Positions 1,892-44,450 of a stretch of DNA of 64,000 nt are shown here, in pieces (within the stretch, counting starts at the first letter, position 1; every line of letters begins with the position of its first letter). The DNA is from a virus (taxonomy: Duplodnaviria > Caudoviricetes). Under the pieces are notes generated by a model. That model was given only the letters and a program-made list of their open reading frames with translations. It made no database searches and was not told where the DNA came from. A program made the position numbers and the translations under genes. Where the stretch lies: positions 224,001 through 288,000 of the IMG/VR virus record IMGVR_UViG_3300021431_000076. One strand, written 5' to 3'.

Positions 1892-2215
1892 TTAACCAAA
1901 GAAGAACTCTCATTATGCAATTCCAAGGAAGATTATTTAGTTCGATATTTATTATGCTCTCTTGCTAAGAGCGATATTGAACTAGGTAAGAAATATAGAG
2001 AAGCTTTAAGATTTTTTGATATCCATTCTAAATCTGAAAGAACAGATACAGAGAAAGAGAAGGTGAAAGAATATGCAACTCTGTTTGTAGATATAAGAAC
2101 TAGTCTATATAGAGCTGTAAGAGAATTAACAAATCACGAGAAAGCGGACTTATTAGAGTATGATAATAAGTTAGATGAGTTTTTAGGGAGTATTAAATTA
2201 GAGGAGAATAAGTAA
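1889..2215 (+). CDS. Hypothetical protein
   Basis: SD AAGGAGG; stop overlaps the next start. Confidence 0.8.
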   Translation: MLTKEELSLCNSKEDYLVRYLLCSLAKSDIELGKKYREALRFFDIHSKSERTDTEKEKVKEYATLFVDIRTSLYRAVRELTNHEKADLLEYDNKLDEFLGSIKLEENK

Positions 2216-2999: not shown

Positions 3000-5900
3000 A
3001 TGTTTAACAACATGTATGGGCAAACTCAGGTCCAACAACCTGTACAGCAACAACCATTCCAAATGCCACAAATTGCATCATTAGAACAGGAAATGCAGGA
3101 ACAAATGAGAGTTAAATGCACTCCTCATATGTATGTAGTGAATAATCCCAAAGTACAACTTCAAGAACCTGTATTAGAATACAACTATGGAGATGGAAGA
3201 GATTATGTTAGTGCAGTTCCAGATATTTCAAATCCTGCATTTAACCAAGAGATAGCTAATGCTGGAGGATTGGAAAATGTCATTAAGAAATATCCATATC
3301 AACAACTTAAGATTGATGATAACGGAAAGCTGGCACCAGTTGAACAAAATCTGGGATATGATCCTACAATTACTAATGCTTATCATGTTATGTATCATTC
3401 TAATCTTAATAAGCAAAAGCAACAAGAAGAACAAAGAAAAAAGCAAGCTATGGAAGATATAGCTCCTGGATCTACTACTCCTAACATCTTTGTTCCTCAT
3501 TATAATAGACCTGGTGCTATTGCTAAGAAGTTGGTTGATATTGATGATGTAGCTAATCATAAGGAGGAAGAAATGTACGGTCCAAGTTTGTTTAGCTTAG
3601 TTGATATGGGAGATAAACCAGAAGAACTCTATGGATATGAAAAGATAGAGCAAGCATATCATATGGAGCCTGAAAATAAAGTAGCAGATTATAGAGTACT
3701 TCAAGAAAGCAATGTTGTATATAATCCTGCTCAACAAGAAACCTATATGATTGATAACAATCGTATACCTGAATTTATAGATATATCTAATCCTACCAAT
3801 GTAGTATTCAAACATCCAAATCCAGATTATAACAAAGCTCCTCAACAAGTTCAACAGCAGCAATTCCAACAAGCAAATCCAGGATATAGCTATTATGGTC
3901 AACAGCCAATGATTCAGTATCCTCAGGCTAATCAAGTAGGAACAGGATATAGCTATGATAGTGGAATGAATCCTAATATCTTTGGCTGGAATAGAAATGA
4001 TCAAGCAGCTCCGTTTGGTTCTATCCCTACAGCAGATCCTGGTTTAGCAAATCTCTTACTCAGTGTATTCAATCCTGCTACTGGTAAAGATGAATGGGTT
4101 CAATCTGGAGGACAACCACAGCAATCTAATATGGTTAATTTCAGTGATATGAACTCTGCTAAGGGTAAGATTACAAACAATGCTGTCGCTAATAACATGA
4201 GAAATCCAAATATTCAATATGGAGGTAACAATGTAAATTCGTATAATCCTTATCAAGCAAGAAACAATAGTCTATGGTTTAATACTCAAAGCACATATAA
4301 CAATGGATTCTATAGTTCTGGATATTATGGAGGAGGATCTGCAACTCCAGGAAAAAATCCTATTCAACAAACTTTTGCTCATTTAACAGATTTCGACTAT
4401 AAACATGGTCTAGGTATCAAAGTAGCAGTAAGAAATACTGGAAAGAAGGTAGAGACTAAAAGAGAAAGAGATCTTAGAAAGTTTGGTCATACTCCAGAAC
4501 CAAAGAGAAAGCTTACTTATCTTGAAAAGTTAACCCAAGTACCAACAGTTAGAGTTTATACGTTTAAGAATGAAGAACCTGAAAAGAAAGATGAGATTTT
4601 CTGGGATAAGAATAGTATGCAGAAGTATACTGAAGCTATGAAGAAAGCTATAGAACTTAAAGCAACTGATGAAGAAGCTAAGATGATGCAAGATCATCCT
4701 ATGAAATTGTCTGAAGATGATAAGAAGATGGCTGAACAGATTGCAGATCATATGGAGGAATGGGATGAAGTATATGCTACATTGATTAGAATGTATGGTT
4801 CTGATGAAGCAACTGAACACCCTGCTTTGAATTGGATGAGTCAAGAGCATTTCTATGTATTTATGAGACTTGCTAGAGGTAGAATTAAGTGGCTGCAAAA
4901 AATGGATATAATTGACAAGTCTAAGAATTATCATAGAGATTATAGATATCTTCAAATTCCATTGTATAATGTTAATCCTAATGATCCTAATGATCGAAAG
5001 TACATGTATAGAGAAGAAGAGGATGATTATTTTGAATTGAGAGAGGTTGATAAGAATGGTAATATCTATCATGTAGTAGACCATGGTGAGGATATTCCAG
5101 ATGATGTAAGACGAGCATTTATGGATGATATGAATACACAGATCAAATATCGTGTAGAAGCTATGCGTATCTATGAGAAGTCTATGTGGTTAATCAAAGA
5201 AAGAGAAGGGAAGAAATTAAATGATCAAGCTAATAATGATAAAGATTCTAAACGTAGTAATTCAGTATGCGGTTACGAGATTGACGGGTCTAATTACGGA
5301 AAAGATAAGACAGAAGAGAATAGCTCATTCAATAGCATGAATTATAATTATATGAGCTATGGTGCTCGTATGTATTATGAGAAACAAGAACAACAGCGTA
5401 GAGAACATCAGAAGATGGTGGATAATCAAAAGATGGTCTTTAGAAAAGCTTTTGGAAGTTCTATGACAGAGAAACAATTTAATGATTTCTGGTATGGTCC
5501 TCAGAATAATCCAGATAATCAATTGGATCCTGTATGGAAAAGACAACAAGAGCTTGCTGCTGTAACAAGAGCTAATATTGCTACTCTGTATAAAGCTCGA
5601 CCTTATCCTGAGAATTCTGAAGAGATACTTAATAAGTTTGAAATTAAGAGACTTAGAGAGATGGATAAGGGATGTATGGAAGGAGTAACAGATCTTAAAG
5701 AGTATTTCGATAACTTTGGTTATTTGGTGAACTTGTGTGAGATGGATGATTCTAGACAAAAGCAAAAAGAGAAAGGCAGTATTATATATAGACTAAATCA
5801 AAAGCTTAAAACAAATTTGGGATTTGTAAAAGAGAATATGGATAAAGTTGTAGATGTGGCTAAAGAAGCTCTTGGTATAGATCAATCTATATTAAAGAAG

Positions 5901-38607: not shown

Positions 38608-39267
38608 ATGAAGTTGATTGTAGTAGTAGATTTACAGAATGAATTCCTTGGTTGGCAACCTGAAGAGATTAAGAAATCTCTTCCAAAGAAAGTGGTGGAT
38701 TATCTAAAAAATCAAATGGAAAAGAGTGATCATACAAGAATAATATGTACTCGTGATACACATCTTGAAAAAGATTATAATGAATATTTTGAATCTTGGA
38801 CTTATCCAATTCATTGTGTTCGTGGTACTTGGGAATGGGAATTAGCAGATGAGCTTGAGGCATTCATGAATGATAGAGCCTATAAAAAGTGCTGGGTAGT
38901 CAATAAACCTACTTATGGAGACTATTCTGATATACTGGGACTTAAAAGACTCTTTAGATGGGAATTTGACGAAATTGAAGTAGTTGGTCTTACAACAGAT
39001 ATTTGTGTATTGGCTACTATGGTTATGCTCAACTGCCTATTCCCTAAAGCAGAATTATCTGTTATTGATGAGCTTACTTATGGTACTTCTGAAGAGAAGA
39101 AACAGCATGCTTATCAAATAATTAATTCTATGGGATTCCATATCAAGACACTTCAGGGATTTGATTATAATACTCCTGAAGCATGGGAAGATGAAGCTAT
39201 CGAAAATAAAGTTATTGATAAGTGTTTTGAGATGGCTGACAATCTTAAAGAGAAGGATGATGAATAA
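38608..39267 (+). CDS. pncA: Nicotinamidase / isochorismatase-family cysteine hydrolase
   Basis: VVDLQNEF, TRDTH, HCVxGT, K and GLTTDICV catalytic motifs. Confidence 0.8.
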   Translation: MKLIVVVDLQNEFLGWQPEEIKKSLPKKVVDYLKNQMEKSDHTRIICTRDTHLEKDYNEYFESWTYPIHCVRGTWEWELADELEAFMNDRAYKKCWVVNKPTYGDYSDILGLKRLFRWEFDEIEVVGLTTDICVLATMVMLNCLFPKAELSVIDELTYGTSEEKKQHAYQIINSMGFHIKTLQGFDYNTPEAWEDEAIENKVIDKCFEMADNLKEKDDE

Positions 39268-41870
39268 TGAGAAAAATGATCATCATGAGGGGCTTACCTG
39301 GTTCTGGTAAGTCCACATGGATTAGACAACATGACCTAGAGGACTATACTCTATCTCCTGATAATATTAGAAAGATTGTTGCTAATCCTGTCATGAGAAT
39401 AGATATTCCATACTTCACTGTAGATCAGACTAGAGATTTCATTGCATGGGGTATTCTGTTTGATGTTCTGGAGCAGAGAATGCAGAGAGGTAACTTTACT
39501 GTTATTGATGCTACAACTCTTACTGCAGACCAGTTCAATAGATATAAAAAGCTTATTGAGAGATATAAGTATAGAGCATTGATAGTAGACTTTACTGATA
39601 TGCCTCTAGAAGAGATCAAGAAGCAGAATGCAGAAAGAGCTAATACAGTAGGTTATGTTCCTGAATGGGCTATTGATAGGCTCTATACCAGATGGGAGAA
39701 TACTGAAGAGTTTATTAAGTCTAATAAGTTTAAGATTATTAAGCCTACCGACTTCTATGAGTTTGATAAGTTCATGTCTATGAAACCTCTTCAGCTAGAT
39801 GAAATGGGTTTCAAGAAAGTAGTATTCATTGGTGATATTCATGGTTGCTGGTCTGCATTGAATAACTACTTTAAGGATACTACTCCTAATGATCATCCTG
39901 ATACATTCTATATATTCTTAGGTGATTATTTGGATAGAGGCCCTGAGAATGTGGAGACTTTCAAACACTTATACGATTGGAGGGAATGCAAGAACGTCTT
40001 ATTACTGCAAGGTAATCATGAAGATCATTGGAAGAATTTTGTTCATGATAATATACCAGATGATGCTTATGAGAAGATTGATTTCTTTAAAGAAACTCTT
40101 CCTCAGTTAACTGAAGCTGGTATCACTAAGAAAGATATCGCTAGATTAGCTGATAGACTTGGTCAGTGTGCTTACTTGCAGAATAAGTTTACTCAAATTT
40201 TAGCTACTCATGCTGGTATCAATGGTATGATTAAAACTTATGAAGATGGTAAGAAGATAGCTACTAGCTTCTATGATTCTTATTTCCTTACTAAGATGAA
40301 TACCTATCAAATGGTACATGGTGTTGGTGGATATGGTGATGTAAATAAGATTGCTGAACAGTGGGAAGAATTCATCAATGTTTCTAAAGGTCAAATCAAA
40401 GGTGGAGAATTCAAATTCTACCAAATCTTTGGTCATAGAAATGATGATAAACTTCCTGTTCAAGTATCTGAACATGTCTTCAATTTAGAGGGTGGAGTAT
40501 CTATCCTTCTCAATGAGAATGCTAGACTTAGAATAGTAGAGTATGATGTTGAGAATGATACTATGACTCCTGTGGAGGTCATAAATCCTAAGTGGAATAT
40601 AGGTTATGAGAATACTCCTAATCCTCATACTGCTCTTATCAAAGATAGAATGATTAGAGCTAAGGGTCTTATCAATGTGAAGAGATTGCATGATAATGTA
40701 TGTGCATTCAACTTCTCTCATGATGCTTGGTATTCTAAAGGGTGGAATAGTCTTACTTGTACTGCAAGAGGATTGTTCATAGACGTGGAAAAGAATGAAG
40801 TAGTTGCTAGATCTTACGATAAGTTCTTCAATTACAAAGAAAGAAGAGAGACAAAAGATCTTGATCAGATGCTTAGACATATCAAGTATCCTGTAAGTGT
40901 ATATGAAAAATATAATGGCTTCCTTGGTATTCTTTCTACATACAATGGAGAATTACTGTTTTGCAGTAAGTCTGAGGATCATTTATCCACTTACAAGAGT
41001 AATAGCGATTATGTACCTCCTCTTGGTAAGAAGATTGAGTATGCCATTAAGGATGGTCTGCGGGCTATTATCCCAAAAGAGAAGCAAGAAAAGTTAAAGC
41101 ATTGGTTTGATGAGCATGAATATTATTCCATGTCTAGAATAGTAAATAAACATCTTATCGACCATAGACAACCATCTAACTGCATGGCTCTTCTCTTCAA
41201 AGAGAACTTTGAAAAGCTTGTTCCTATAGAAACTCAGGAGAAGATTAAGAAGTTCTTACTAGAAAAGAACTGCTCTATGCTATTTGAAGTAATTGATCCT
41301 GAAAGAGATCCTCATATCGTTGTATATGATAAACCTAGAGTAGTATTACTTGATATCGTATATAATGATATTGAGAAGCCAGCAACTCTCTTCAGTTATA
41401 AGAATCTGCAGAATCTAAATAATGGTGTCTTCCATATTGATCTCAAAGAGCAAGTAGAAGTCATTAAAGATGAAGAACATTTTAGAGCATTTGTAGAAGG
41501 ATTCTATGGTTCTACTCATCTTAACAAAGAAGGATTTGTATGTAAAGATGCTGAAGGATTCATGCTCAAGTTCAAGACAGCAGATTATAAGTTCTGGAAA
41601 TGTATAAGAACTATGCTTGATAGTATCAATGATAGTGAGTATGGAGCTGTTCCTACATTCAAGCATACTTGTCCTTACTTATCTGCTGAATTTGATTCTA
41701 CTGTGGTTCAATACTATAGTGAAAAGTTTGATAATCTACTAGAATTCTTATTAGAAAAGTTTGGTCAAGAGAGAAGAGATGAACGTATAATATTACCTCC
41801 TAACTTCTTAATCAAACCAGATGGTAGTAGATACAATCTTATCGAAATTCGTAAAATGGCAAACATGTAA
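39267..41870 (+). CDS. Trifunctional RNA repair enzyme: polynucleotide kinase, metallophosphoesterase and RNA ligase (Pnkp-like)
   Basis: GLPGSGKS P-loop; GDIHG, GDYLDRG, GNHE, HAG, FGH; ligase motifs EKYNG, FE, EGFV and KxK. Confidence 0.9.
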   Translation: MRKMIIMRGLPGSGKSTWIRQHDLEDYTLSPDNIRKIVANPVMRIDIPYFTVDQTRDFIAWGILFDVLEQRMQRGNFTVIDATTLTADQFNRYKKLIERYKYRALIVDFTDMPLEEIKKQNAERANTVGYVPEWAIDRLYTRWENTEEFIKSNKFKIIKPTDFYEFDKFMSMKPLQLDEMGFKKVVFIGDIHGCWSALNNYFKDTTPNDHPDTFYIFLGDYLDRGPENVETFKHLYDWRECKNVLLLQGNHEDHWKNFVHDNIPDDAYEKIDFFKETLPQLTEAGITKKDIARLADRLGQCAYLQNKFTQILATHAGINGMIKTYEDGKKIATSFYDSYFLTKMNTYQMVHGVGGYGDVNKIAEQWEEFINVSKGQIKGGEFKFYQIFGHRNDDKLPVQVSEHVFNLEGGVSILLNENARLRIVEYDVENDTMTPVEVINPKWNIGYENTPNPHTALIKDRMIRAKGLINVKRLHDNVCAFNFSHDAWYSKGWNSLTCTARGLFIDVEKNEVVARSYDKFFNYKERRETKDLDQMLRHIKYPVSVYEKYNGFLGILSTYNGELLFCSKSEDHLSTYKSNSDYVPPLGKKIEYAIKDGLRAIIPKEKQEKLKHWFDEHEYYSMSRIVNKHLIDHRQPSNCMALLFKENFEKLVPIETQEKIKKFLLEKNCSMLFEVIDPERDPHIVVYDKPRVVLLDIVYNDIEKPATLFSYKNLQNLNNGVFHIDLKEQVEVIKDEEHFRAFVEGFYGSTHLNKEGFVCKDAEGFMLKFKTADYKFWKCIRTMLDSINDSEYGAVPTFKHTCPYLSAEFDSTVVQYYSEKFDNLLEFLLEKFGQERRDERIILPPNFLIKPDGSRYNLIEIRKMANM

Positions 41871-42498: not shown

Positions 42499-42581
42499 AA
42501 AGCTACATTTATGCAGACTAATATTTAGAACAGTTATATACTATATACATGTAAAGTTTAAACGTATAGGAGGTTTGTATT

Positions 42582-43283
42582 ATGGCTACTAAAGAAGTGC
42601 TTACTATTGCTCAGATTATTGCTGAGTGTAAGTCTACACAAAATAAAATCTTCACTGTCATTGGTGATAGAGATTTTCGTCTAGTAGAATATTATATTAA
42701 GGCTAAGCCTTATATTGGTGCTCGTAACATTGCAGAAGAAGAAGAAAGAATCACTTCTGATGCTGATAAGATCTCTGATCTTATGGTTCGCCTTGATGCT
42801 CTTACTAAAGCTCGCATTAAGGCTAATGCTGAAACTATGGTTAAAGTTCCTGAGCAGCTTTCCCTCAAAGATCTCTTTGCAGGTAAAGAAGCTAAGGTAG
42901 AAGAGATCAGCATTGCTGAAGCTATTAATCGTAAGAAGTACTATATAAACTTCATGAAGTCTATTATAGCTAACTTCGAACGTCAGCTTTCTAATGCATC
43001 TTCTCGGAAAGGTCAGCTTGAATATGAGGCTGCTAATCTTGTCAATCATGACCTTGACCAGCAGTTCCCTCGCGATGTTCAAAAGAACTGGTCTACGGAT
43101 GCACAGAAAAAAGCTCGTGAAGAGCTTGAAAAGAAGTATGAAGTAGTTCGTCTTGATCCTAAAAACATCATTTCGAATGACTCTATTAATAAGCTCAAAA
43201 CTTCGGTAATGGACTATATTGATAAGATAGATACTACTCTGTCTATCATTAATGCTAAGACTGAAGTCACCATTGAGTACTAA
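42582..43283 (+). CDS. Coiled-coil protein, pattern similar to DIP1984-like proteins
   Basis: LTIAQ...ARIKANAETMV...SIAEAINRK...DTTLSIINAKTEV; early motif near 42536; SD AGGAGGT; CGT/CTT/GCT-rich codons like hup. Confidence 0.8.
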   Translation: MATKEVLTIAQIIAECKSTQNKIFTVIGDRDFRLVEYYIKAKPYIGARNIAEEEERITSDADKISDLMVRLDALTKARIKANAETMVKVPEQLSLKDLFAGKEAKVEEISIAEAINRKKYYINFMKSIIANFERQLSNASSRKGQLEYEAANLVNHDLDQQFPRDVQKNWSTDAQKKAREELEKKYEVVRLDPKNIISNDSINKLKTSVMDYIDKIDTTLSIINAKTEVTIEY

Positions 43284-43289
43284 TATCTG

Positions 43290-43820
43290 ATAAGTTTATT
43301 GCTTGGGAGACCAAAATATAAAATCAATCAACCCTTTTCTTTACTTGAGAAGTTGGTTCTTTTGGGGTTATAAAAGAACTTAAATTCTCTTAATGAATTC
43401 TTTAGAAAAAAAGAATCAGCGACTCATAATCGCTACATAATAAGGCAGATAAAGCAACGATCTTTTAAATCGTGTTAGCTTATCACATCTGGCATTAATA
43501 TAAAGATATGCCACCAGGAGACTTTAAACCTTTAAAGATTTAAATTTATAAAGTCTAAACTTTTAAACCTTTAAAAAGCCCCTCCAGAATTGACAGGCTC
43601 ATATAGATACCTAATAGCAAAGGGGCACTTTAACTTTATAAACTTTTATAAACGATTGGCAATAATATAATTTAAAACTTCCAATCATTATAAACCTTTA
43701 AAGATTTAAACTTATAAACCAAATCCTATACTAGCAACACTGTTACTCGAAGAGGGTCACTGAGGTGTTTGATTGACCTCAAATATCAGTTATAGGTGAT
43801 TAACCTGAGCATAAATTTAT
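43290..43820 (+). ncRNA. Candidate large structured ncRNA with internal TAAA repeats
   Basis: 17-bp terminal stem 43290-43307/43804-43820, second long-range stem 43331-43339/43749-43757, many internal hairpins, no ORF. Confidence 0.7.
43522..43720 (+). repeat. Three tracts of 7-9-nt units ending in TAAA
   Basis: CTTTAAA CCTTTAAA GATTTAAA TTTATAAA GTCTAAA CTTTTAAA CCTTTAAA; 20-mer TAAACCTTTAAAGATTTAAA exact at 43525-43544 and 43691-43710. Confidence 0.85.
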
Positions 43821-44000
43821 AAATAAAATGAGATTGCAATTTATTATCATCTTTGTAGCGAATCAAATGCTGCATGGTAGCTACGGTAATTTTTCCAGAA
43901 CCTAGCTCTAGTTTACATTTAAATTTAATCTCATTGATTTGCCGTTAAATTAAATTATTGATTGGATGGCAAAGTCGCGTAACTTAAAAAATCATACACT

Positions 44001-44048
44001 AAATACAGGTAGACTCCTTGTGAGTCTACCTGTATTTTTTCTTTTTTT
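44001..44048 (+). terminator. Strong intrinsic terminator closing the protein+RNA unit
   Basis: AAATACAGGTAGACTC-CTTGT-GAGTCTACCTGTATTT plus T run. Confidence 0.85.
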
Positions 44049-44105
44049 CAAGCATATATTATAGTAGTGATGAATGAATGTATTAAAAGAAAGGAAGGAT
44101 TCATC

Positions 44106-44450
44106 ATGATGGAAAACAAAGTAGTCGTAAACCTCTGCCCGCATCCGATTAACATTATTGCTTCTGATGGGAGCATCCGTAACTTTCCTAAATGTGAGGT
44201 ACCTGCAAGGGTATCCCAGTCTGAGGAAGTGGTTGGAAACATCCTTGGGGTGGAAATCACTCGCCAGAAGTTTGGCAAAGTTGAAAACCTTCCCGAGCCA
44301 CAGGAAGGTACTTATTTGGTTGTATCTCGCCTGGTTGTTGCGGCAGCTCAGGCAGAAGGGAGGGATATATCTGATCTGCTAATTCCTGGTCCTGGTGTAC
44401 GGGACGAAGAGGGACGGATAATAGGAGCCAAAGGCTTCTCCGTCCTGTAA
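44106..44450 (+). CDS. Small NLxPH-motif protein; candidate Crn4-like ring nuclease
   Basis: VNLCPH, PARV, LPEPQEGTYLVVS and VRDEEGRIIG; own early promoter and TTCG terminator; family link is from memory. Confidence 0.5.
   Translation: MMENKVVVNLCPHPINIIASDGSIRNFPKCEVPARVSQSEEVVGNILGVEITRQKFGKVENLPEPQEGTYLVVSRLVVAAAQAEGRDISDLLIPGPGVRDEEGRIIGAKGFSVL

What the first reader, a model, noticed from the sequence alone, without database searches (positions are those of the whole stretch)
42536..44048. Candidate undescribed ribonucleoprotein system: coiled-coil protein co-transcribed with a large structured ncRNA
Seen: one early promoter motif (about 42536) and a strong SD precede a 233-aa helical ORF. 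About 720 nt with no ORF follow, in an otherwise tightly packed genome, and a single strong terminator closes the unit at 44001-44048. The RNA starts 6 nt after the stop codon. The gene uses CGT/CTT/GCT codons like the HU gene, unlike its AGA-rich neighbours, suggesting high expression. From memory, the protein pattern (T/S-IAE/Q-A..., A...AN..T.V, D..LS..NA.T.V) resembles DIP1984-like coiled-coil proteins of unknown function. Inference: the protein oligomerises on the repeat-bearing RNA to form a scaffold or filament, possibly a counter-defence or RNA-protection device. A Pnkp-type RNA repair gene lies just upstream.
Basis: partly seen in the sequence, partly recalled or inferred. Interest (0 to 1): 0.9.

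Follow-up and report, generated by a model that had tools for sequence, protein, structure and literature searches.

The report
Phage protein with partner structured RNA
A 332-kb phage carries a gene for a small helical protein followed by an abundant, intricately folded non-coding RNA of about 500-700 nt studded with evenly spaced A-rich repeats, and this protein-plus-RNA pair, whose function is unknown, recurs in many phages including the classic phage T5.

Summary
ORF 42582-43283 (233 aa) has a promoter-like motif, a strong SD and a deviant CGT/CTT/GCT codon bias. About 780 ORF-free bases and a strong terminator (44001-44037) follow.

The ORF-free stretch is a real structured RNA.
- A model of its 3' domain finds it directly behind the homologous gene in 21 loci. 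There 93.6% of pair cells are paired against 62.4% in shuffles, and 18 of 20 pairs change on both sides.
- A closing stem joins 43300-43307 to 43804-43811 and covaries. A 5' pseudoknot is read by eye.
- Gut metatranscriptome contigs from four studies cover the RNA.

No Rfam family matches it. Only a distant relative's 5' domain reaches the orphan motif RAGATH-27.

Two tracts of 7-8-nt UAAAC/G units fill the middle. The same lineage-specific words sit beside the SD of the protein's own gene. The protein has a DIP1984-like fold and is predicted to form a homodimer.

The best reading is a ribonucleoprotein with autogenous translational control. Binding and function are untested.

The family occurs in 747 GenBank phage records (T5.085, PVP-SE1), mostly mislabelled 'tail fiber'. 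This scan found the same module earlier on a related 342-kb phage (e1-5656819).

The parts
42534..42551 (+). promoter-like motif TTATATACTATATACATG of the unit
   Evidence: Read. Near-identical motifs lie upstream of the homologous gene in L001, L003, L017 and L037 and after the terminator at about 44053-44073. Its function as a promoter is inferred.
42551..42563 (+). two repeat units (GUAAAG, UUUAAAC) in the mRNA leader, just 5' of the SD: candidate translational operator
   Evidence: Only 2 of 320 SD-preceded ORFs in the whole genome have two phased TAAA[CG] cores in the leader.
42568..42573 (+). Shine-Dalgarno AGGAGG
42582..43283 (+). 233-aa helical protein: phrog_1491, DIP1984-like fold, predicted homodimer
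43300..43307 (+). 5' strand of the closing stem P1 (UGCUUGGG), pairing with 43804-43811
   Evidence: cognate helix score 18.0 against 9.6 for non-cognate pairs of lineages, p 2.8e-7. The strands are GGAUUAUG/CAUAAUCC in distant lineages.
43311..43311 (+). apparent 5' end of the abundant RNA
   Evidence: contigs of two studies (X1, X6) begin here, and in X6 an Illumina adapter abuts this base. This is a weak hint.
43331..43379 (+). 5' pseudoknot domain: H1 43331-43335 (ACCCU) with 43364-43368 (GGGGU), which lies in the loop of hairpin H3 43356-43363/43372-43379
   Evidence: RNAalifold finds H1 in the close relatives of the window. Compensatory variants were read by eye. The automated test is weak (p 0.034).
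43418..43434 (+). hairpin AGCGA[CUCAUAA]UCGCU with an anticodon-loop-like 7-nt loop
   Evidence: interpretation speculative
43457..43473 (+). hairpin ACGAU[CUUUUAA]AUCGU with an anticodon-loop-like loop, conserved with covarying stems in the close relatives of the window
   Evidence: Contig X3 starts at 43464, inside the loop.
43519..43578 (+). repeat tract 1: about 7 units of 7-8 nt with a UAAAC/UAAAG core
   Evidence: Spacing across lineages has its mode at 8 nt (36 cases), then 7 nt (18 cases).
43578..43626 (+). central hairpin closed by GCCCCU/AGGGGC, between the two tracts
43627..43722 (+). repeat tract 2, interrupted by hairpin 43654-43686
43721..43811 (+). 3' domain. Pk 43725-43730/43791-43796. 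Pj 43739-43742/43787-43790. Hairpin Pa 43745-43757 with a GAAGA loop kept in all but one lineage (L037 has GAUGA). Hairpin Pb 43761-43781. P1 3' strand 43804-43811.
   Evidence: Model R1, its matches and pair counts. Independent duplex tests.
43812..44000 (+). variable 3' extension of the transcript, absent in L012-L014
   Evidence: Covered by contigs X1 and X3. An X6 variant lacks 67 nt here.
44001..44047 (+). intrinsic terminator: 16-bp stem, 5-nt loop, T run

Best explanation
One transcription unit runs from the promoter-like motif to the terminator. It makes a small helical protein, probably a dimer, and directly behind it an abundant non-coding RNA.

The conserved core of the RNA is about 510 nt, and the transcript extends to about 730 nt as far as the terminator. 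It has these parts:
- a closing stem;
- a 5' pseudoknot domain;
- a variable region, which carries hairpins here and complete tRNA genes in other lineages;
- two tracts of about seven 7-8-nt UAAAC/G units around a central hairpin;
- a 3' three-way-junction domain.

Inferred mechanism. Copies of the protein bind the phased units, so the RNA nucleates a multi-copy ribonucleoprotein. The same units next to the SD of the protein's own mRNA would let surplus protein repress its own translation. This is the logic of ribosomal-protein feedback, and of TRAP, HutP or CsrA on phased short motifs.

Shown: the RNA is real, structured, expressed and coupled to the gene across phages.
Inferred: binding, autoregulation and any downstream role. 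My leading guess for that role is something in tRNA or RNA metabolism or counter-defence.
For: 1. Coupling. Every homologue examined in the loci fetched is followed by a non-coding stretch of 400-870 nt. This holds down to members that the profile search finds at E 1e-14 to 1e-30. Upstream neighbours differ between loci.

2. Structure.
- Model R1 was built from 5 close sequences. It finds the 3' domain directly behind the gene, on the + strand, in 21 loci.
- On that alignment 93.6% of cells are paired against 62.4% in shuffles (0 of 500 reach it). 18 of 20 pairs change on both sides. The covariation score is 0.742 against 0.213, and slid controls reach 0.13 at most.
- Cognate against non-cognate helix tests that do not use the model: P1 p 2.8e-7, Pa p 9.7e-7, Pb p 1.2e-4, Pk+Pj p 3.9e-5.
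- Many U-G pairs fit only the + strand.
- The single-sequence fold has z -3.24.

3. Expression.
- RNA-library contigs from four studies cover the RNA.
- An X9 contig bridges the ORF's 3' end and the RNA.

4. Repeats have a 7-8-nt phase in all lineages. The unit differs by lineage: UUUAAAC here, AAACUGUUAAAC in L039/L040, GUUCAAAG in PVP-SE1, AUUAAG in L046.

5. The same words lie next to the SD of the protein's own gene.
- Cognate leader-RNA sharing is 3.88 against 2.01 for non-cognate pairs, p 0.0024.
- In this genome only 2 of 320 leaders have two phased cores.

6. Homodimer. The score is 0.74 and the best of 3 controls 0.00. That mark was reached by 20 of 30 proteins solved as pairs of one chain and by 1 of 23 solved as single chains. 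The runs share at least 93% of their contacts and the partner's pLDDT is at least 87. The model supports binding; it does not show it.

7. Codon bias fits high expression.
Against: - No direct test of protein-RNA binding is possible with these tools.
- The protein is not basic (pI 5.7-8.5) and has no recognised RNA-binding domain.
- A/U-rich sequence upstream of an SD can be a general translational enhancer. TATAAA/TTTAAA words are common in this AT-rich genome, and the non-cognate sharing score is already 2.0.
- The pair counts were made on an alignment fitted to the model's own structure.
- The apparent 5' end at 43311 lies 3 nt after the 5' strand of P1. The mature RNA may therefore lack that strand, which the model does not explain.
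- Contigs cannot give strand, true ends or levels.
Confidence: 0.6

Rival explanations
1. RNA-only machine. The RNA works by itself, like the ROOL and GOLLD phage RNAs that assemble into RNA-only cages. The repeats would mediate RNA-RNA contacts or folding. The neighbouring protein is only co-expressed, or acts on the same pathway without coating the RNA.
For: - Same niche as ROOL/GOLLD: phage, rumen/gut, tRNA-adjacent, about 500-600 nt, ornate (PMC5737381; loci).
- UUUAAA units are self-complementary, and the two tracts can pair in the single-sequence fold.
- The protein is not basic.
Against: - Units such as CUGAUAAC or GUUCAAAG in other lineages are not self-complementary and occur as direct repeats on both sides of the central hairpin.
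- This reading does not explain why the lineage-specific units recur at the SD of the protein's gene.
- It does not explain the strict gene-RNA adjacency over very large divergence.
Confidence: 0.13
2. Sponge or timer. The protein is a translational repressor of its own and perhaps other phage mRNAs. The abundant RNA, with about 15 sites, is a decoy that titrates it (CsrA/CsrB logic), or it titrates a host RNA-binding protein such as S1.
For: - Many phased short sites on an abundant RNA, plus sites at an SD.
- A second leader in the genome, the ORF at genome 330227, has four phased units.
Against: - Only 2 of 320 leaders carry phased units, so a regulon is at best tiny.
- The conserved pseudoknot and three-way-junction domains are more than a sponge needs.
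- A host target would not call for lineage-specific units.
- This rival overlaps with the best explanation, because binding is common to both.
Confidence: 0.12
3. tRNA-related decoy or carrier. The RNA is a scaffold that presents tRNAs or anticodon-arm mimics. It would serve as bait for host anticodon nucleases or as a protected tRNA precursor, working with the phage RNA-repair enzymes.
For: - Complete tRNA genes, several with changed or suppressor anticodons, are embedded at the same place in L021, L023, L025, L034, L035 and L037.
- The window has hairpins with CUCAUAA and CUUUUAA loops there. The second is conserved with covarying stems in relatives.
- Contig X3 starts at 43464, the position equivalent to the wobble base of that loop.
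- Pnkp-ligase or RtcB genes and tRNA clusters lie nearby in several lineages.
Against: - It rests on one contig end in one run.
- ARAGORN and Rfam find no tRNA in the window RNA.
- Anticodon-like 7-nt loops are only modestly enriched overall (27 of 178 hairpins).
- L017 has CAUUUAA at this spot.
- Many lineages have neither a tRNA nor an obvious mimic.
- This reading does not explain the repeats.
Confidence: 0.1
4. DNA-level element. The AT-rich repeats are iterons of a replication origin or another protein-binding DNA site, and the protein is its DNA-binding partner.
For: Clustered short direct repeats in an AT-rich non-coding region next to a small protein gene.
Against: - The 8-nt phase does not match the DNA helical repeat.
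- Helices covary with many G-U pairs that fit one strand only.
- There is a closing stem across about 500 nt.
- RNA-library contigs are confined to this stretch.
- The unit ends in an intrinsic terminator.
Confidence: 0.03

Closest known systems
RAGATH-27 RNA motif (Rfam RF03100), an 86-nt orphan candidate motif
   Same: In Dulem virus 39 the motif lies directly after the stop codon of a homologue of this protein (L016 3650-3733, 77.2 bits against a gathering score of 76.1). Its consensus shares the order of elements of the window's 5' domain: UUGcUU, an A-rich stretch, GuCUUU, a hairpin, AAAGAA.
   Different: The window RNA does not match the model even at E <= 10. RAGATH-27 covers only the 5' 86 nt, while the unit here is 510-730 nt with repeat tracts and a 3' domain. 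No function or protein partner is on record, and no paper holding the term 'RAGATH-27' was found.
ROOL and GOLLD large ornate RNAs of phages and prophages
   Same: Size class (about 500-800 nt), complex folds with pseudoknots and multistem junctions, phage and rumen/gut origin, and frequent position next to tRNA genes (PMC5737381).
   Different: There is no match to either Rfam model in the window or in ten relatives. ROOL and GOLLD have no dedicated neighbouring protein and are reported as RNA-only complexes (bioRxiv 10.1101/2024.12.08.627333, listed). This RNA has phased 7-8-nt repeats and an invariant partner gene.
Oligomeric RNA-binding regulators that read phased short repeats (TRAP on (G/U)AG repeats, HutP on UAG repeats, CsrA with CsrB/RsmZ), and ribosomal-protein autogenous control. 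This comparison rests on my own knowledge.
   Same: Many short, evenly spaced motifs on one RNA. The same motif at the ribosome-binding site of an mRNA. An oligomeric protein (dimer predicted).
   Different: The protein has no sequence or fold relation to these. The RNA also carries large conserved structured domains. Binding is not shown.
DIP1984 of Corynebacterium diphtheriae (PDB 3KDQ) and the DIP1984/DUF6847 family (PF20935), function unknown
   Same: It is the best structural match: Foldseek E 4.8e-3, probability 1.0; VIA-align Z 9.9, rmsd 6.6, all 152 residues of the chain aligned. An Atlas cluster named 'putative DIP1984 family protein' matches with TM 0.52 by the query and 0.70 by the match.
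   Different: No Pfam or NCBIfam match by sequence. The phage protein is about 80 residues longer. For helical proteins a Z under about 13 can mean only a common arrangement (note).

Membership tests
RAGATH-27 (RF03100) | covariance-model score at or above the gathering threshold (76.1 bits) | tested here: not met
   No match in window 43200-44100 even at E <= 10, nor at gathering over the whole window. It is met only by the distant relative in Dulem virus 39 (77.2 bits).
RAGATH-27 (RF03100) | position directly downstream of a phrog_1491-type gene, with the same order of 5' elements | tested here: met
   L016 gene 2998-3639, motif 3650-3733. Window gene ends at 43283 and the RNA starts at 43299.
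ROOL (Rfam) / GOLLD (Rfam) | match to the family covariance model | tested here: not met
   No match at gathering. None at E <= 10 in the window RNA or at E <= 1 in ten related loci.
ROOL / GOLLD | large ornate RNA of phages, often beside tRNA genes | tested here: met
   Covarying multi-helix fold. tRNAs are embedded or adjacent in relatives. This is a likeness in kind, not homology.
tRNA / tRNA-like | cloverleaf recognised by ARAGORN or Rfam RF00005 | tested here: not met
   None in the window. Relatives carry true tRNAs inside the RNA.
DIP1984 / DUF6847 (PF20935) | match to the Pfam or NCBIfam profile | tested here: not met
   No such family at E <= 0.1 in Pfam or at E <= 1 in NCBIfam. None in ten distant relatives.
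DIP1984 / DUF6847 (PF20935) | shared fold with 3KDQ | tested here: inconclusive
   It is the top match in three searches. But Z 9.9 with rmsd 6.6 and TM 0.52 are in the range where helical bundles match by arrangement alone.
PHROG 1491 ('tail fiber protein') | profile match | tested here: met
   E 2e-18 over residues 7-232.
PHROG 1491 ('tail fiber protein') | a tail fibre function | not testable with these tools
   Nothing supports the label. The gene lies among early, RNA-metabolism or tRNA genes. The fold is a helical dimer. PVP-SE1's own GenBank record calls it a conserved hypothetical protein.
Self-cleaving ribozymes (twister, hammerhead, hatchet, pistol, HDV-like) | match to an Rfam ribozyme model | tested here: not met
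   None. The discrete end at 43311 leaves processing of some kind open.

The most novel reading that the evidence does not exclude
The module is a phage counter-defence ribonucleoprotein. A protein-coated scaffold RNA would display tRNAs or anticodon-arm mimics as bait for host anticodon nucleases, or protect phage tRNAs from them, and would cooperate with the phage's heal-and-seal RNA repair enzymes. The window's mimics are the CUCAUAA and CUUUUAA loops. One metatranscriptome contig begins exactly at the wobble-equivalent base of the CUUUUAA loop.
Probability: 0.1. Interest if true: 0.92.

Novelty: categorically new. Interest (0 to 1): 0.86.

Why it matters
Large, intricately folded non-coding RNAs are rare in bacteria and phages, and each known class has opened new biology. 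This one has three features that make it unusually tractable.

- It has a dedicated, co-evolving protein gene. That gives an immediate handle for pull-downs, reconstitution and cryo-EM.
- It has a built-in hypothesis for recognition, because the same phased 7-8-nt units lie in the RNA and at the protein's own ribosome-binding site.
- It is present in hundreds of cultured phages, including T5-like and PVP-SE1-like phages of E. coli and Salmonella, where genetics is routine.

The family is currently mislabelled 'tail fiber protein' in hundreds of GenBank records, and the RNA is unannotated. If the ribonucleoprotein reading holds, it defines a widespread phage system of unknown function in some of the best-studied phages. 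It would also give a first context for the orphan Rfam motif RAGATH-27 and for the DIP1984-like fold.

Tried and rejected
- blastn of the unit against GenBank phages found no match.
- Rfam gave nothing at gathering over the whole window. At E <= 10 it gave only chance-level hits such as LhrC and miRNA models.
- Pfam, NCBIfam and a PDB sequence search of the protein gave only sub-threshold hits (DUF896, a lytic transglycosylase N-terminus at E 0.0075), taken as chance.
- MAFFT plus RNAalifold on the 3' domain recovered only the GAAGA hairpin. On the 5' domain it recovered only H1. Helices differ in register between lineages, so I turned to anchored duplex tests and a covariance model.
- Loose-window helix searches for Pk and Pj were not significant until the windows were anchored.
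- The automated search for the 5' hairpin H3 picked the wrong hairpin in about 5 of 11 lineages. The H1 pseudoknot test is therefore weak (p 0.2, then 0.034) and rests mainly on reading by eye.
- I did not build a 5' domain model, because the outer stem H2 has three different registers among five seeds.
- R1 did not find the 3' domain in L040/L041 (which have an inserted hairpin) or in the most distant loci L044, L046, L015, L016 and L049. Their likeness rests on layout and repeats read by eye.
- The one extra R1 hit, window 1938-2042 at E 7.9, is taken as chance.
- Parts of the 7 kb without contig cover in the RNA runs are not evidence of silence.
- Overall enrichment of anticodon-like 7-nt loops is modest, 27 of 178.
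- Alternative genetic codes were considered but not tested, because neighbouring genes read normally under code 11.
- Literature searches found nothing on the function of T5.085/T5p083, RAGATH-27 or DIP1984.
Full report
**What is there**

The window is part of a complete 332,775-bp, 31% G+C phage genome. It has split multisubunit RNA polymerase genes and a kinase-phosphatase-RNA-ligase fusion at 39267-41870.

The finding's ORF is real: 42582-43283, 233 aa. It is preceded by AGGAGG (42568-42573) and by the motif TTATATACTATATACATG (42534-42551). That motif recurs in front of the homologous gene in relatives and, as a variant, after the terminator.

No + strand ORF above 32 aa follows until 44067/44106. 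The stretch ends in the best terminator-like site of the region, a 16-bp stem at 44001-44037 followed by a T run.

The codon claim is correct. CGT makes up 50% of Arg codons, CTT 69% of Leu with no TTA, and GCT 82% of Ala. Almost all of the other 31 ORFs are dominated by AGA and TTA.

**The gap is conserved with the gene**

- Sequence searches found 22 close relatives.
- A profile search found 1,233 representative clusters at E <= 0.001, almost all 205-240 aa and unnamed, many on contigs of 200-500 kb.
- In every locus I could fetch, the gene is followed by 400-870 nt without a called gene. This holds whether the upstream neighbour is the Pnkp-like ligase, NrdD/radical-SAM genes or something else.
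- In the genome itself both the gene and the RNA are single-copy.

**The gap is a structured RNA**

Alignment of the gaps shows blocks that are better conserved than the protein. By anchoring on these blocks I delimited a core of 437-586 nt in 16 loci. It starts 7-28 nt after the stop codon, except in L021, where a further 92-aa ORF lies between.

Helices found:
- **P1**, a closing stem: 43300-43307 with 43804-43811. It reads UGCUUGGG/CCUGAGCA here and GGAUUAUG/CAUAAUCC in distant lineages.
- **Pk, Pj, Pa, Pb**, which form the 3' domain at 43721-43811. Pk and Pj are two stacked stems. They lead into a three-way junction with hairpin Pa (GAAGA loop in all but one lineage) and hairpin Pb.

Tests that pair the 5' strand of one lineage with the 3' strand of another gave these results:

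| Helix | Measure | Cognate | Non-cognate | p |
|---|---|---|---|---|
| P1 | helix score | 18.0 | 9.6 | 2.8e-7 |
| Pa | helix score | 9.8 | 5.9 | 9.7e-7 |
| Pb | helix score | 14.7 | 11.2 | 1.2e-4 |
| Pk+Pj | duplex energy, kcal/mol | -8.4 | -4.8 | 3.9e-5 |

A covariance model was built from only five close sequences with my structure. It found the domain in 21 loci, always on the + strand directly behind the gene, with E down to 1e-3 at 28% protein identity. Pair counts on the resulting alignment:
- 93.6% of cells are paired, against 62.4% in shuffles (0 of 500 shuffles reach it).
- 18 of 20 pairs change on both sides.
- The covariation score is 0.742 against 0.213.
- Slid controls reach 0.13 at most.

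The caveat is that this alignment is fitted to the model. The frequent U-G pairs fit only the + strand.

The 5' domain reads as an H-type pseudoknot. ACCCU (43331-43335) pairs with GGGGU (43364-43368), which lies in the loop of hairpin 43356-43363/43372-43379. Other lineages have compensated versions: ACUCC/GGAGU, AUCUU/GAGGU, GGAGAG/CUCUUU, GGCC/GGCC, CUUC/GAAG. I read this mainly by eye, and the automated test is weak. The single sequence folds with z -3.24.

**The repeats**

Two tracts (43519-43578 and 43627-43722) flank a GC-closed hairpin (43578-43626). They consist of units of 7-8 nt with a UAAAC/UAAAG core. Across lineages the spacing has its mode at 8 nt (36 cases), then 7 nt (18 cases).

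The unit differs by lineage:
- UUUAAAC in the window;
- AAACUGUUAAAC in L039/L040;
- CUGAUAAC in L021;
- GUUCAAAG in Salmonella phage PVP-SE1;
- NUUAAAG in Dulem virus 39;
- AUUAAG in L046;
- NNUCAAG in L044;
- UUCUAAAC/G in the T5-like phage DT57C.

**The variable region**

Between the 5' domain and the repeats, several lineages carry one or two complete tRNA genes. Some have unusual or suppressor anticodons: gaa, tta, tga, ata, tca, aga.

The window has hairpins there instead. Two of them have anticodon-loop-like 7-nt loops: CUCAUAA at 43423-43429 and CUUUUAA at 43462-43468. The second is conserved with covarying stems in close relatives.

**Expression**

Twenty RNA runs from ten studies of gut and rumen metatranscriptomes hold part of the stretch. 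I laid four runs from four studies on 7 kb.

| Run | Contig on the window | Contig depth | Note |
|---|---|---|---|
| X1 | 43311-44009 (699 nt) | 40.9 | identical to the window; the only contig in the 7 kb |
| X3 | 43464-44009 | 134.7 | small contigs on neighbouring genes have depths 2.3-3.7 |
| X6 | 43311-43754 | 7.7 | an Illumina adapter abuts 43311 |
| X9 | 42965-43811 (978-nt contig) | 505 | a related strain; bridges the ORF's 3' end and the RNA |

Because the flanks are absent or very thin, contaminating DNA is an unlikely source. Contigs cannot give strand or levels. The shared start at 43311 and the shared stop at 44009 are therefore only hints. The start lies 3 nt after the 5' strand of P1, which suggests processing between mRNA and RNA that I cannot explain.

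**Link between protein and RNA**

The lineage-specific repeat words also lie immediately 5' of the SD of the protein's own gene.
- Window: GUAAAG UUUAAAC GUAU AGGAGG.
- L040: AAUUAAACUGUUAAACUGCUAAAUUGGAGG.
- L037: UAUAAACUUAUAAAC.
- PVP-SE1: UUCAAAAUUAAAUGAGAGGAG.
- L046: GGUUAAGCUAUUAAUUGUUAAAUUGGAGG.
- DT57C: CUUUAAACAAAUUCAAAUCUUAAAC.

Leader words that are repeated in the cognate RNA score 3.88, against 2.01 with the RNAs of other lineages (p 0.0024). Other 48-nt windows of the same loci score 0.93. In this genome only 2 of 320 SD-preceded ORFs have two phased TAAA[CG] cores in the leader: this gene and an ORF at genome position 330227. This is the signature of an operator that mimics the main binding site, so it is indirect evidence that the protein reads the units.

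**The protein**

- AlphaFold gives a confident model (pLDDT 87.8) of long helices with a small sheet.
- The best PDB match in two searches is 3KDQ, DIP1984 of C. diphtheriae, of unknown function: Foldseek E 4.8e-3, and VIA-align Z 9.9, rmsd 6.6, 152 of 152 residues.
- An Atlas cluster named 'putative DIP1984 family protein' (PF20935 on 25% of its members) matches with TM 0.52 by the query and 0.70 by the match.
- No Pfam or NCBIfam model matches by sequence.
- PHROG 1491 matches at E 2e-18. Its label 'tail fiber protein' has no support.
- A homodimer is predicted with score 0.74, and the best of three controls scores 0.00. That mark was reached by 20 of 30 proteins solved as pairs of one chain and by 1 of 23 solved as single chains. 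The runs share at least 93% of their contacts and the partner's pLDDT is at least 87. The model supports binding; it does not show it.
- The protein is not basic (pI 5.7-8.5). Eight positions are K or R in at least 11 of 12 aligned sequences.

**Spread**

tblastn with the PVP-SE1 member finds 747 GenBank phage records. They include T5-like phages (T5.085), PVP-SE1-like phages, and Bacillus, Pseudomonas, Vibrio, Erwinia and Lactococcus phages. Most are labelled 'tail fiber protein' or hypothetical.

In PVP-SE1 the gene sits inside the tRNA cluster. In Dulem virus 39 it lies between tRNAs and is followed by the Rfam motif RAGATH-27, which corresponds to the 5' domain of the RNA. In DT57C a 443-nt unannotated gap with about 11 phased units follows T5.085.

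**Comparison with what is known**

- No Rfam family matches the window RNA. ROOL and GOLLD share its niche but not its models.
- RAGATH-27 is an uncharacterised 86-nt motif that only a distant relative reaches.
- I found no paper on T5.085, RAGATH-27 or DIP1984 function.
- An earlier follow-up in this scan, on a related 342-kb phage (e1-5656819), reached the same core reading. My tests were made independently on this window and agree with it.

**Verdict**

The RNA is real, structured, expressed and coupled to the gene. The ribonucleoprotein reading is the best-supported explanation (about 0.6) but rests on indirect evidence, and the biological role is unknown. I rate it categorically new as a system, while noting that its 5' part has a cousin in Rfam as an orphan motif.

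Noticed in passing
window 43462-43468 (loop) and 43464: Metatranscriptome contig X3 (546 nt, depth 134.7) starts at 43464. That is the base equivalent to the wobble position of the tRNA-Lys-like loop CUUUUAA, the place where PrrC-type anticodon nucleases cut real tRNA-Lys (own knowledge). It is one contig end in one run, so only a lead.
   Followed up: partly
L021 3672-3757, L023 1047-1129, L034 1506-1591, L035 1768-1852, L037 1761-1938, L025 1112-1276: Complete tRNA genes are embedded inside the RNA in several lineages. Near-identical class II tRNA bodies carry different anticodons in close relatives (tga in L034, gaa with C33 in L021, tta ochre suppressor in L023). L037 carries a tca (opal-reading) tRNA.
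   Followed up: partly
genome position 330227-330622 (outside the window, which is genome 224001-288000): This is the only other gene of the genome whose leader has phased units. It has four: GUUAAAG, CUGUAAAG, ACUUAAAG and AGUUAAAG, directly before the SD. It may be a second target of the same protein.
   Followed up: no
window 39267-41870: An 867-aa fusion of polynucleotide kinase, metallophosphatase and T4-Rnl1-type RNA ligase domains (phrog_8238, E 7e-170). It lies upstream of the module here and in L001, L003 and L012, but not in the lineages with NrdD upstream.
   Followed up: partly
GenBank phage records (e.g. NC_016071 gp82, NC_027356 gp120): The protein family is annotated 'tail fiber protein' in hundreds of records. 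The label seems to have been propagated without evidence. The downstream RNA is unannotated in those records.
   Followed up: partly
window 43853-43919: A strain in run X6 lacks 67 nt of the 3' extension, replaced by CAAC. L012-L014 lack the whole extension. So 43812-44000 is a dispensable, variable part of the transcript.
   Followed up: no
window 44106-44450: The next gene (114 aa) is GC3-richer (0.44) than its neighbours. It matches only PHROGs of unknown function (phrog_21731, phrog_30542). Another first-stage note proposes a ring nuclease, which I did not test.
   Followed up: no
whole genome (332,775 bp): The genome has only one tRNA gene (Arg-tct, genome 132161-132235), although the module is tied to tRNA clusters in other phages.
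   Followed up: yes
window 44053-44073: A variant of the promoter-like motif (ATATATTATAGTAGTGATG) lies directly after the terminator. Close copies stand after the RNA in L003, L012, L013 and L018, so it is probably the promoter of the next early gene.
   Followed up: no
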